39,519 nucleotides of DNA from a virus (UHGV-0148166), one strand, 5' to 3'. Counted from the stretch's first letter, positions 677-1,097 are shown. The notes: generated by a model from the sequence alone, not told the origin. Program-made: numbers and translations.

Positions 677-753
677 CGAGGCATAGCTCAATTGTATAGA
701 GCAACGGACTTCTAATCCGTAGGTTGAAGGTTAGAATCCTTCTGTCTCGACCA
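677..753 (+). tRNA. tRNA-Arg (anticodon UCU), CCA encoded
   Basis: Manual cloverleaf: acceptor CGAGGCA/TGTCTCG (one G-U), D stem GCTC/GAGC, anticodon stem ACGGA/TCCGT with loop CTTCTAA, T stem GAAGG/CCTTC, discriminator A then CCA. Confidence 0.75.
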
Positions 754-1070
754 GACAAGAAACCGGGTCGCTACCGGTAAGTCGTCGGACTGATGTTCCC
801 TGTTTAAGGACTGGCATTAATAAATCTTTATGTTTTGTTGATGCCCTCTTACATCACAGCAGAAACGGCGCACCGAATTATCGATTCGAGGAAATATCTT
901 TGCCGTAAGCCGAGTAGCGTTTTTGACGGAACGTTCGGATATGGTCGAGATATGGCCTTTTAAAAATATTGAGTAGCGTCAACTACTTAATAACCGGGTT
1001 CAAGTCCCGGCGTTTCGTACAAACACTTGCCTTAGCAGGTGGAACCCCGACAAGGTTGCCGCAAGGCTTA
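754..1070 (+). ncRNA. Structured non-coding stretch; candidate small stable RNA(s), possibly T4 species-1/2-like; contains tRNA-like T-arm (CCGGG-TTCAAGT-CCCGG at 994-1010) but no canonical cloverleaf
   Basis: No ORF with RBS; several hairpins; GAGTAGCGT repeated at 912 and 971; lies between a tRNA and a terminator. Confidence 0.3.
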
Positions 1071-1097
1071 GCCCCGACCGAAAGGTTGGGGCTTTTT
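1071..1097 (+). terminator. Rho-independent terminator
   Basis: GCCCCGACC-GAAA-GGTTGGGGC stem-loop followed by TTTTT. Confidence 0.7.

What the first reader, a model, noticed from the sequence alone, without database searches (positions are those of the whole stretch)
677..1097. Reduced tRNA cluster: a single tRNA-Arg followed by about 320 nt of structured non-coding sequence
Seen in sequence: one clean cloverleaf (tRNA-Arg UCU, 677-753) starts 4 nt after the SegB-like stop. The next 317 nt have no RBS-led ORF but contain hairpins, a tRNA-like T-arm (994-1010) and a repeated GAGTAGCGT, and end in a strong terminator. Established knowledge: T4 encodes eight tRNAs plus two small stable RNAs in this region. 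Inference: this phage retains tRNA-Arg and possibly stable-RNA analogs but has lost the other tRNAs, or carries degenerate tRNA remnants.
Basis: partly seen in the sequence, partly recalled or inferred. Interest (0 to 1): 0.45.

Follow-up and report, generated by a model that had tools for sequence, protein, structure and literature searches.

The report
T4 tRNA-Arg plus stable RNAs C/D
This stretch is the well-known end of the phage T4 tRNA operon (tRNA-Arg, then the two small stable RNAs D and C, then a terminator); the "missing" tRNAs are missing only because the assembled contig stops at a sequencing adapter inside the neighbouring gene.

Summary
They are the tRNA-Arg(UCU) at 677-753, about 320 nt without a credible ORF, a T-arm at 994-1010, GAGTAGCGT twice, and a strong terminator at 1070-1098.

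The non-coding stretch is not an unknown element. Positions 755-874 are the orthologue of T4 rnaD (species 2 RNA). Positions 881-1019 are the orthologue of T4 rnaC (species 1 RNA, 136/139 identical). Both sit in T4 synteny: segB, tRNA-Arg, rnaD, rnaC, terminator, e.8.

"Reduced tRNA cluster" is an artefact. The window is a whole contig bounded by Nextera adapters, and it starts at SegB codon 16. T4 and the closest relative carry seven more tRNAs upstream of segB.

Comparison across at least ten genera of Tevenvirinae shows that rnaC is a strongly covarying tRNA mimic. It has a 7-bp acceptor stem, a canonical T-arm, an invariant GG, a discriminator U followed by NCA, and no anticodon loop. Two of its extra arms carry complementary 6-nt loops (UUGACG and CGUCAA) that covary in two lineages. 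rnaD has a weaker but conserved fold.

The function of both RNAs remains unknown. The element is already known, so interest is low. The loop-loop pairing is the only possibly new detail.

The parts
1..52 (.). Illumina Nextera adapter (AGATCTACAC-GTAAGGAG-TCGTCGGCAGCGTCAGATGTGTATAAGAGACAG). It marks the artificial left end of the contig.
   Evidence: Read directly. Its reverse complement closes the window at 39468-39519. The adapter identity rests on my own knowledge of the sequence.
53..673 (+). 3' part of a segB-type GIY-YIG homing endonuclease gene (stop codon 671-673). The first 15 codons are missing because the contig ends.
   Evidence: BLASTP against T4 SegB gives 83% identity over T4 residues 16-221. 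T4 annotation.
677..753 (+). tRNA-Arg(UCU) with encoded CCA.
   Evidence: ARAGORN; Rfam RF00005 at 71.1 bits. It is 100% identical to the tRNA-Arg of Mosigvirus ATK47 and of Salmonella phage BCPSen_003. It is a different allele from T4's tRNA-Arg.
755..874 (+). Orthologue of T4 rnaD (species 2 small stable RNA), 120 nt. It has a 5' hairpin at 762-778 with loop GUCGCUA. A closing helix pairs 781-787 with 866-873. The apical hairpin is variable.
   Evidence: Local alignment to T4 rnaD (NC_000866 71053-71171); about 91% identity. Consensus fold and pair counts. Distant homologues.
881..1019 (+). Orthologue of T4 rnaC (species 1 small stable RNA), 139 nt by transfer of the T4 annotation. The tRNA-like fold spans 882-1018 and is followed by ACA at 1019-1021. 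True ends are uncertain by 1-2 nt.
   Evidence: 136/139 identical to T4 rnaC. Covariance model R1 scores 160.4 bits at 875-1025. Covariation. Coordinates mapped.
882..888 (+). rnaC acceptor-like stem, 5' strand CGAUUCG. It pairs with 1011-1017 (CGUUUCG). The 7 bp include a tandem U.U mismatch.
   Evidence: A-U changes to G-C at pair 3. The U.U pairs become Watson-Crick pairs in TG1, L025 and PM2.
923..928 (+). rnaC helix-5 apical loop UUGACG. It is complementary to the loop at 977-982.
   Evidence: Covaries with the partner loop: UUGAUG/CAUCAA in TG1 and L025, and UUGGCG/CGCCAA in L015 and L017.
977..982 (+). rnaC helix-6 loop CGUCAA, the partner in the loop-loop pairing. It sits on a 10-bp stem (967-976 with 983-992).
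   Evidence: In helix 6, 8 of 10 pairs show compensatory change.
994..1010 (+). rnaC T-arm: 5-bp stem and 7-nt loop UUCAAGU. It matches the tRNA GGTTCRANTCC motif and abuts the 3' acceptor strand 1011-1017. Discriminator U is at 1018.
   Evidence: The stem covaries: CCGGG/CCCGG, CCUGG/CCAGG, CUUGG/CCAAG.
1020..1069 (+). 3' trailer of the operon, with a small hairpin at 1024-1041. It is 96-100% conserved among Tequatrovirus relatives.
   Evidence: Fold; conservation (query 'tail').
1070..1098 (+). Intrinsic terminator: AGCCCCGACC-GAAA-GGTTGGGGCT followed by TTTTT.
   Evidence: Identical in T4 over the stem-loop.

Best explanation
Window 677-1098 is the distal end of a T4-type tRNA operon. It holds tRNA-Arg(UCU), the orthologues of T4's two small stable RNAs (RNA D / species 2 at 755-874 and RNA C / species 1 at 881-1019), a ~50-nt trailer and an intrinsic terminator. 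Only one tRNA is visible because the contig ends at a sequencing adapter inside segB. The rest of the cluster lies upstream of segB in relatives.

How it works:
- Shown here: RNA C folds as a tRNA mimic. It has a 7-bp acceptor stem stacked on a canonical T-arm, an invariant GG in the place of the D-loop GG, and a discriminator U followed by NCA. Two long extra arms carry 6-nt loops that are complementary to each other. There is no 7-nt anticodon loop, so it cannot decode.
- Shown here: RNA D is a separate hairpin-plus-long-stem RNA with an invariant core.
- Inferred from what is established for T4: all three RNAs are cut from one precursor. Host RNase P cuts 5' of tRNA-Arg and 5' of the RNA C acceptor stem. 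3' exonucleases then trim back to the closing helices, which would explain the 1-nt and 6-nt spacers. In T4 the products accumulate as stable RNAs.
- Function is unknown in the literature. My best guess, at about 0.3, is that RNA C acts in trans. It would occupy a tRNA-recognising partner, such as a processing enzyme, the CCA-adding enzyme, or a tRNA-directed host nuclease or defence protein. It would not act in translation.
For: Identity and synteny:
- T4 annotates rnaC, rnaD, tRNA-Arg, segB and seven tRNAs in this order.
- The three-way alignment is 94% identical per column, from segB through e.8.
- rnaC is 136/139 identical to T4, and rnaD aligns end to end.
- rnaC homologues occur in 743 phage records and rnaD homologues in 735. 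Several carry rnaC/rnaD annotations.

Contig truncation:
- Adapters lie at both ends.
- SegB starts at residue 16.
- Relatives have 7 tRNAs upstream of segB.

rnaC structure:
- RNAalifold on 10 diverse sequences gives 42 pairs, 27 of them compensatory.
- In 26 sequences 94.2% of cells are paired, against about 40% when partners are slid. 31 of 44 pairs show compensatory change, and 0 of 500 shuffles reach this.
- The loop-loop helix is 99.4% paired with two covarying positions. It holds in 24 sequences from at least 10 genera.
- Genuine tRNAs score 13-33 bits on the rnaC model.
- Relaxed ARAGORN calls the 3' 95 nt tRNA-like. GenBank annotates it as tRNA-Met in three Enterobacter phages: SonariX, vB_Ecl_id4496 and PG7.
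- In other genera rnaC sits inside tRNA arrays, between tRNA-Trp and tRNA-Gly.

Expression in T4:
- RNAC and RNAD were classified as late RNAs, with northern validation using an RNAC probe (PMC9697503).

Dispensability and unknown role:
- PMC3014915 and PMC2330249.
Against: - Nothing contradicts the identity.
- The biogenesis steps are transferred from T4 and were not tested for this phage.
- The T4 annotation places the rnaC 5' end one nucleotide upstream of the acceptor stem. It places the 3' end at U-A rather than at a CCA end. Either the annotation is off by 1-2 nt or the RNA is not finished like a tRNA.
- No promoter for this sub-cluster was found in the retained 53-676.
- The proposed trans-acting tRNA-mimic function has no direct evidence. 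No partner is known. There is no complementarity or similarity to E. coli genomes.
- JS10 keeps rnaD but lacks rnaC, and the whole region is non-essential in the laboratory (PMC2330249).
Confidence: 0.9

Rival explanations
1. The phage really has a reduced tRNA set: it kept only tRNA-Arg and lost the other T4 tRNAs.
For: ARAGORN finds only one tRNA in the whole 39.5-kb window. tRNA content does vary among T4-like phages: T2L, RB1 and RB3 differ from T4 (PMC2330249), and JS10 has three tRNAs.
Against: The window starts with an adapter and then SegB codon 16. The place where the other tRNAs lie in T4, BCPSen_003 and AV119 is simply not in the contig. Every segB-carrying relative examined has tRNAs immediately upstream of segB.
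Confidence: 0.04
2. The 754-1070 stretch consists of decaying tRNA pseudogenes, or of mere structured spacers. On this view the RNAs are stable processing by-products that help fold, process or protect the tRNA precursor in cis. They would have no function of their own.
For: - rnaC has a tRNA-like acceptor and T-arm.
- rnaD's ends coincide with the neighbouring tRNA-type processing sites and with its closing helix.
- The region is dispensable in the laboratory (PMC2330249).
- rnaC and rnaD are lost or rearranged independently. JS10 lacks rnaC. AugustSocin has a replaced rnaD centre. ATK47 has an ORF between tRNA-Arg and rnaD.
Against: - rnaC is 95-99% identical in 646 of 743 records, including RB69 of a different genus at 97.1%.
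- Its unpaired loops, linker and GG are invariant across at least 10 genera, while its stems covary.
- The two loops covary with each other. A passive spacer would not need that.
- rnaD keeps an invariant block of about 44 nt.
- One study reports a single convergent SNP in rnaD in all lines of a T4-like phage adapted to a semi-permissive host (PMC12685909).
Confidence: 0.2
3. The stretch encodes small proteins, as many GenBank records annotate ('hypothetical protein' over rnaC/rnaD).
For: Several phage records carry CDS features over the matches. TTG-started ORFs of 42 and 45 aa exist at 835-963 and 969-1106.
Against: - The ORFs are short, start with TTG, and run across the rnaD/rnaC and rnaC/terminator boundaries.
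- In other genera rnaC stands alone between two tRNAs, so these ORFs cannot be conserved.
- The substitution pattern is compensatory base-pair change, not codon-like.
- T4 is reported to make stable RNAs here (PMC9697503).
Confidence: 0.02
4. RNA C and/or RNA D are base-pairing regulators (sRNAs) that act on host or phage mRNAs.
For: Invariant segments predicted to be unpaired exist. In rnaD these are GGACUGAU, GUUCCCUG and AUCACAGCAGAAA. In rnaC it is the linker UUUAAAAA. PMC9697503 calls them 'small regulatory RNAs'.
Against: No similarity or complementarity of 754-1100 to any complete E. coli genome at blastn sensitivity. The most conserved rnaC loops are accounted for by pairing with each other. 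[quoted passage not shown]
Confidence: 0.1

Closest known systems
Bacteriophage T4 rnaC (species 1 RNA) and rnaD (species 2 RNA), NC_000866 70908-71046 and 71053-71171
   Same: Same genes. rnaC is 136/139 identical and rnaD about 91%. Order, spacing and flanks are the same: segB, tRNA-Arg, 1 nt, rnaD, 6 nt, rnaC, trailer, terminator, e.8.
   Different: There are three substitutions in rnaC, two of them in the T-loop (GUUCAAG against GUUCGAA). rnaD has small indels in its variable hairpin. The base after rnaD's terminal ACC is G, so T4's ACCA is not kept. The adjacent tRNA-Arg is a different allele.
Canonical tRNA, especially class II tRNAs with a long variable arm
   Same: rnaC shares several tRNA features:
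- a 7-bp acceptor stem stacked on a 5-bp T-stem;
- a T-loop UUCRANU with a G53-C61-type closing pair;
- a GG before the 3' strand of a 3-bp D-stem-like helix;
- one nucleotide between helix 6 and the T-stem, as after a long variable arm;
- a discriminator followed by NCA, which is CCA in PM2, L015 and L017.
   Different: - No 7-nt anticodon loop and no anticodon arm.
- About 65 nt inserted in the D region.
- A tandem U.U mismatch in the acceptor stem in most members.
- Below threshold for ARAGORN and for Rfam tRNA.
tRNA-like domain of tmRNA
   Same: An acceptor/T-arm module combined with non-tRNA helices that replace the anticodon arm.
   Different: No tag reading frame, no pseudoknot ring, 140 nt rather than about 360 nt. 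ARAGORN finds no tmRNA at default settings, and the relaxed calls are spurious.
Other tRNA mimics: bacterial Y-RNA-like YrlA, mascRNA/MEN-beta tRNA-like RNAs, and viral 3' tRNA-like structures (from my own knowledge)
   Same: Non-decoding RNAs that copy the tRNA elbow or acceptor and are handled by tRNA enzymes. Rfam's mascRNA model weakly matches the T-arm (15.3 bits, E = 4).
   Different: No significant match to any of these Rfam families. The architecture outside the T-arm is different.
Large ornate phage-associated RNAs found next to tRNA genes (ROOL, GOLLD; from my own knowledge)
   Same: Phage-encoded, located beside tRNAs, function unknown. Loop-loop contacts are important in their assemblies.
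   Different: They are 4-6 times larger, with no sequence or Rfam relationship. Whether the rnaC loop-loop pairing acts within one molecule or between molecules is untested.

Membership tests
T4 rnaC (species 1 RNA) | Full-length sequence homology to the annotated T4 gene | tested here: met
   136/139 identical with no gaps. Covariance model built from 10 homologues scores 160.4 bits, E about 1e-37.
T4 rnaC (species 1 RNA) | Position at the 3' end of the tRNA operon, after tRNA-Arg and rnaD and before the terminator and e.8 | tested here: met
   Alignment A1 and the T4 feature table.
T4 rnaC (species 1 RNA) | Conserved secondary structure shared with homologues | tested here: met
   94% of cells paired and 31 of 44 pairs compensatory. 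The window sequence fits all helices.
T4 rnaC / rnaD | Accumulates as a stable ~140-nt / ~120-nt RNA in infected cells | not testable with these tools
   Reported for T4 only: RNAC and RNAD were classified as late RNAs, with a northern using an RNAC probe (PMC9697503).
T4 rnaD (species 2 RNA) | Full-length sequence homology and position directly 3' of tRNA-Arg | tested here: met
   Aligned over T4 positions 4-119 with three 1-nt indels. About 91% identity. It starts 1 nt after the tRNA CCA, as in T4.
Canonical tRNA (for 754-1070) | Cloverleaf with anticodon arm detected at curated thresholds | tested here: not met
   ARAGORN at default settings and Rfam at gathering or E <= 10 find no tRNA in 754-1100. 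Only relaxed ARAGORN settings give inconsistent calls.
Canonical tRNA (for 754-1070) | Acceptor stem contiguous with a T-arm carrying the GTPsiC-type loop | tested here: met
   882-888 pairs with 1011-1017, next to the T-arm at 994-1010. Both covary.
Canonical tRNA (for 754-1070) | 3'-terminal CCA, encoded or added | tested here: inconclusive
   The window encodes U-ACA. PM2, L015 and L017 encode U-CCA, and TG1 encodes U-UCA. The mature 3' end cannot be determined from sequence.
tRNA-Arg(UCU) | Cloverleaf, UCU anticodon, score above curated thresholds | tested here: met
tmRNA | tRNA-like domain plus tag-peptide reading frame | tested here: not met
   No tmRNA from ARAGORN at default settings and no Rfam tmRNA hit.
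Intrinsic (Rho-independent) terminator | G+C-rich hairpin followed by a U-run | tested here: met
   10-bp stem with 7 G-C pairs, GAAA loop and TTTTT at 1070-1098.
Any Rfam 15 family other than tRNA | Match at gathering score | tested here: not met
   None in the window. Nothing better than E = 2.4 within 754-1100. rnaC and rnaD appear to have no Rfam model.

The most novel reading that the evidence does not exclude
RNA C may be a 'locked' tRNA mimic. Its two non-tRNA arms end in 6-nt loops (UUGACG and CGUCAA) that are complementary and covary in two independent lineages. The arm lengths are fixed across at least 10 genera. The pairing could close the molecule into a rigid shape, or it could join molecules into dimers or rings. 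Such an RNA could present a tRNA elbow and acceptor end to a tRNA-directed host or phage protein, for example as a decoy for a tRNA-cleaving defence. I found no description of this pairing in the accessible literature. The 1970s-80s structural papers on species 1 RNA could not be read, so it may have been noted before.
Probability: 0.3. Interest if true: 0.5.

Novelty: already known. Interest (0 to 1): 0.2.

Why it matters
For this window the result is mainly a correction. The locus is the ordinary 3' end of the T4 tRNA operon, and the apparent loss of tRNAs is an assembly artefact caused by untrimmed adapters. It should not be counted as a reduced tRNA set.

More generally, RNAs C and D are reported to be made during T4 infection, yet the papers I could read still list their roles as unknown. 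They have no Rfam model. In GenBank they are frequently left unannotated, called 'hypothetical protein', or called tRNA-Met.

The comparative fold obtained here gives concrete mutations to test. It comprises a tRNA-like core, an invariant GG, a tandem U.U mismatch and a covarying loop-loop pair. The covariance model could also be used to annotate the family across Tevenvirinae.

Tried and rejected
- Rfam, at gathering score and at E <= 10, on 600-1300: only tRNA-Arg. The other hits are the tRNA read on the wrong strand, or noise.
- blastn of 754-1100 against 5,426 complete E. coli genomes: no match. There is no evidence of host origin or of an antisense target.
- A class II tRNA reading of rnaC positions 46-140, with alternative acceptor ACGGAAC/GUUUCGU, as called by relaxed ARAGORN and annotated as tRNA-Met in SonariX. 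Rejected as the conserved fold: the alternative acceptor fails in TG1, VPA32 and PM2, whereas the 5'-terminal acceptor covaries.
- The GAGTAGCGT repeat as a functional motif, or as a partner of the rnaD loop GUCGCUA (5-nt complementarity to UAGCG). Rejected: both copies lie in stems, the repeat is not kept in distant homologues, and the rnaD loop changes in Moon and PM2 without a matching change in rnaC.
- T4's 'ACCA' at the end of rnaD as a tRNA-like 3' end. Rejected: homologues do not conserve it (ACCG, ACAG, ACAA, GCAG).
- Search for a late promoter (TATAAATA) or a MotA-box middle promoter upstream of tRNA-Arg within 53-760: none found. The promoter is presumably upstream of the contig end.
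- Literature searches for the original structural work on species 1/2 RNA and for recent functional work: nothing beyond 'function unknown'. Miller et al. 2003 is not held.
- A K-turn or loop-E reading of the conserved rnaD internal loop: no convincing match by eye. Not pursued.

Full report
**1. What is in the sequence**

- ARAGORN finds one tRNA in the whole window: tRNA-Arg(UCU) at 677-753. Rfam confirms it at 71.1 bits against a gathering score of 29.
- The preceding ORF stops at 671-673.
- Between 754 and 1097 there are only short TTG-started ORFs.
- The T-arm-like CCGGGTTCAAGTCCCGG is at 994-1010.
- GAGTAGCGT occurs at 912-920 and 971-979.
- A 10-bp G+C-rich hairpin followed by TTTTT lies at 1070-1098.
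- Both halves of the non-coding stretch fold better than shuffled controls, with z = -2.3 and z = -4.5.

**2. What it is**

- blastn against 50,697 phage records gives 1,114 matching records, mostly T4-like phages of Escherichia, Shigella, Klebsiella and Salmonella.
- The T4 record annotates, in transcription order: seven tRNAs (Gln, Leu, Gly, Pro, Ser, Thr, Ile), segB, tRNA-Arg, rnaD ('species 2 RNA', 119 nt), rnaC ('species 1 RNA', 139 nt), then e.8.
- A three-way alignment of the window, T4 and the closest relative (Salmonella phage BCPSen_003) is 94% identical per column, from the end of segB into e.8.
- Transferring the T4 coordinates puts rnaD at 755-874 (120 nt, three 1-nt indels). It puts rnaC at 881-1019 (136/139 identical).
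- The 320 nt are therefore the two classical T4 small stable RNAs plus a ~50-nt trailer and the operon terminator.
- Neither RNA has an Rfam family.

**3. Why only one tRNA**

- Window 1-52 is an Illumina Nextera adapter. The last 52 bases are its reverse complement with the same index. The window is thus an entire contig with untrimmed adapters.
- Immediately after the adapter the sequence enters segB at codon 16, with 83% identity to T4 SegB residues 16-221.
- In T4, in BCPSen_003 and in AV119 the other tRNAs lie directly upstream of segB. That is off the end of this contig.
- 'Reduced tRNA cluster' is an artefact. The true tRNA content of this phage cannot be read from this window.

**4. 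rnaC is a conserved tRNA mimic**

*Distribution.*
- rnaC homologues occur in 743 phage records. 646 of them are 95-99% identical, including RB69 of another genus at 97.1%.
- More distant copies occur in Karamvirus, Moonvirus, Tegunavirus, Gelderlandvirus, Mosugukvirus, Kanagawavirus, Kagamiyamavirus, Gaprivervirus, and Klebsiella phages of the Marfa/F48 type.
- In several of these genera rnaC sits inside tRNA arrays, typically between tRNA-Trp and tRNA-Gly.

*Covariation.*
- RNAalifold on ten diverse copies predicts 42 pairs, 27 with compensatory changes.
- With the two U.U positions added, 93% of cells pair, against about 40% for slid partners.
- A covariance model built from this alignment finds exactly one full-length copy per genome fragment (92-171 bits). 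In the window it scores 160 bits at 875-1025. JS10 has none.
- On 26 sequences, 94.2% of cells pair and 31 of 44 pairs show compensatory change.

*Fold in window coordinates.*
- Acceptor-like stem: 882-888 with 1011-1017. It has 7 bp with a tandem U.U mismatch, which becomes Watson-Crick in TG1, L025 and PM2.
- A 3-bp helix: 889-891 with 956-958. It encloses a long three-part arm (helices 3-5, 896-951) and is preceded on its 3' side by an invariant GG (954-955).
- An 8-nt linker, UUUAAAAA.
- A 10-bp hairpin (967-992) with loop CGUCAA.
- One nucleotide, then a canonical T-arm (994-1010).
- The 3' acceptor strand, a discriminator U (1018) and ACA.
- After the discriminator the homologues read ACA in most, CCA in PM2, L015 and L017, and UCA in TG1.

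*Comparison with tRNAs.*
- Real tRNAs score 13-33 bits on the rnaC model.
- ARAGORN at relaxed settings calls the 3' 95 nt a tRNA.
- Three Enterobacter phage records (SonariX, vB_Ecl_id4496, PG7) annotate it as tRNA-Met.
- There is no 7-nt anticodon loop, so it cannot decode.

**5. A covarying loop-loop pair**

- The apical loop of helix 5 (UUGACG, 923-928) is the exact complement of the helix-6 loop (CGUCAA, 977-982).
- In TG1 and L025 the pair reads UUGAUG/CAUCAA. In L015 and L017 it reads UUGGCG/CGCCAA. All other lineages keep UUGACG/CGUCAA, even where the rest of the long arm has a completely different sequence (VPA32, Melville, L027, Kosakonia 305). PM2 keeps 4 of the pairs.
- These pairs were not part of the covariance model, so the alignment was not fitted to them.
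- The arm lengths are almost free of indels.
- This supports a 6-bp kissing interaction. Sequence alone cannot say whether it forms within one molecule or between molecules.

**6. rnaD**

- rnaD homologues occur in 735 records and are more variable.
- The consensus fold has three parts:
  - a 5' hairpin (762-778: 5 bp and loop GUCGCUA, with an A-U to G-C change at the closing pair);
  - a closing helix (781-787 with 866-873);
  - an irregular long stem whose apical hairpin changes sequence but stays a hairpin.
- 94% of cells pair, against 33-52% for slid partners. Most core pairs are invariant, so support is moderate.
- An nhmmer profile finds shorter relatives in PM2, Moon and L015/L017. They share the core AAGUCGUC...GUUCCCUG...AUCACAGC...GGCGCA. 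Moon shows a G-C to C-G swap in the closing helix.
- rnaD and rnaC occur independently:
  - JS10 has rnaD followed directly by the trailer and no rnaC.
  - ATK47 has an ORF between tRNA-Arg and rnaD.
  - AugustSocin and L019 carry a replaced centre.

**7. How it works**

- Shown here: identity, synteny, the folds and the terminator.
- Taken from the T4 literature: both RNAs are expressed and classified as late RNAs, with a northern using an RNAC probe (PMC9697503). Their roles are unknown (PMC3014915). The tRNA region is not essential for phage development (PMC2330249).
- Inferred: the three RNAs are co-transcribed up to the terminator at 1070-1098. RNase P cuts 5' of tRNA-Arg and 5' of the rnaC acceptor stem; a U precedes the stem in nearly all homologues. 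Exonucleases trim back to the closing helices, which fits the 1-nt and 6-nt spacers.
- For function I commit, at about 0.3, to RNA C acting in trans as a non-decoding tRNA mimic that engages a tRNA-recognising protein.
- The main rival, at about 0.2, is that both RNAs are only structured processing spacers.
- A report of a single convergent SNP in rnaD in all lines of a T4-like phage adapted to a semi-permissive E. coli host hints at a host-dependent role. That paper's mapping is loosely described (PMC12685909).

**8. Verdict**

The feature is real, and it is the already known T4 tRNA-Arg / RNA D / RNA C / terminator module. The 'reduced cluster' reading is an assembly artefact. Interest is low for the finding as stated. 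The covarying tRNA-like fold and the loop-loop pairing of RNA C are a modest, testable addition to an old open question.

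Noticed in passing
window 1-52 and 39468-39519: Both ends of the window are the same Illumina Nextera adapter (index GTAAGGAG), in inverted orientation. The window is therefore a complete contig from reads that were not adapter-trimmed. Features at either end are truncated artificially.
   Followed up: partly
window 677-753: The tRNA-Arg(UCU) is a different allele from T4's tRNA-Arg: there is no significant local alignment, although the flanks are 95-100% identical. 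It is 100% identical to the tRNA-Arg of Mosigvirus ATK47 and of Salmonella phage BCPSen_003. A third allele (~76% identical) occurs in bov10K1, REP1 and AugustSocin. This looks like cassette exchange. SegB-driven gene conversion of this region (PMC2330249) would fit.
   Followed up: partly
window 994-1010: The rnaC T-arm DNA (GGTTCAAGTCC) matches the GGTTCRANTCC core of the SegB recognition site reported in PMC2330249. The rnaC gene may therefore be a secondary SegB cleavage site.
   Followed up: no
phage GenBank records matching window 755-1019: In most records rnaC and rnaD are unannotated or overlaid with 'hypothetical protein' CDS. In Enterobacter phages SonariX, vB_Ecl_id4496 and PG7 the 3' part of rnaC is annotated as tRNA-Met. 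Neither RNA has an Rfam family.
   Followed up: partly
L004, L005, L018, L019, L023, L032, L034, L036 (relatives), about 600 nt downstream of rnaC: The 34-nt terminator segment (window 1067-1100) is duplicated about 600 nt downstream. In the annotated records the two copies flank an inserted ORF of about 100-160 codons. The window, T4 and BCPSen_003 have a single copy and no insert. This looks like an insertion that carried or duplicated the terminator.
   Followed up: no
L012:230-327, L017:12471-12600 (minus strand), L015:2011-2140 (minus strand); also the centre of rnaD in L034 and L019: A further conserved non-coding element is shared by PM2 and the Klebsiella-phage-like contigs L015 and L017, in gaps between tRNAs. 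Its motifs are UGUUCCCACAG...CUGUGUUCUAC...CCUACUUG...ACCCGGA. Part of the motif (CCCACAG...CUGUGUUCU) replaces the centre of rnaD in AugustSocin and L019. It may be another small structured RNA of T4-like tRNA regions.
   Followed up: no
L007/L008 (Karamvirus) 426-668 and 1032-1245; L013 466-678; L006 934-1430 and 1731-2041: Several other gaps of 200-500 nt between tRNA genes in these phages carry no annotated gene (in Moon one gap holds a small annotated ORF). They were not examined for structured RNAs.
   Followed up: no
window 1221-1249: A sigma-70-like promoter (TTTACA, 17 nt, TACTAT, with TG) lies upstream of the e.8 homologue, whose ATG is at 1293. It is conserved in T4.
   Followed up: no
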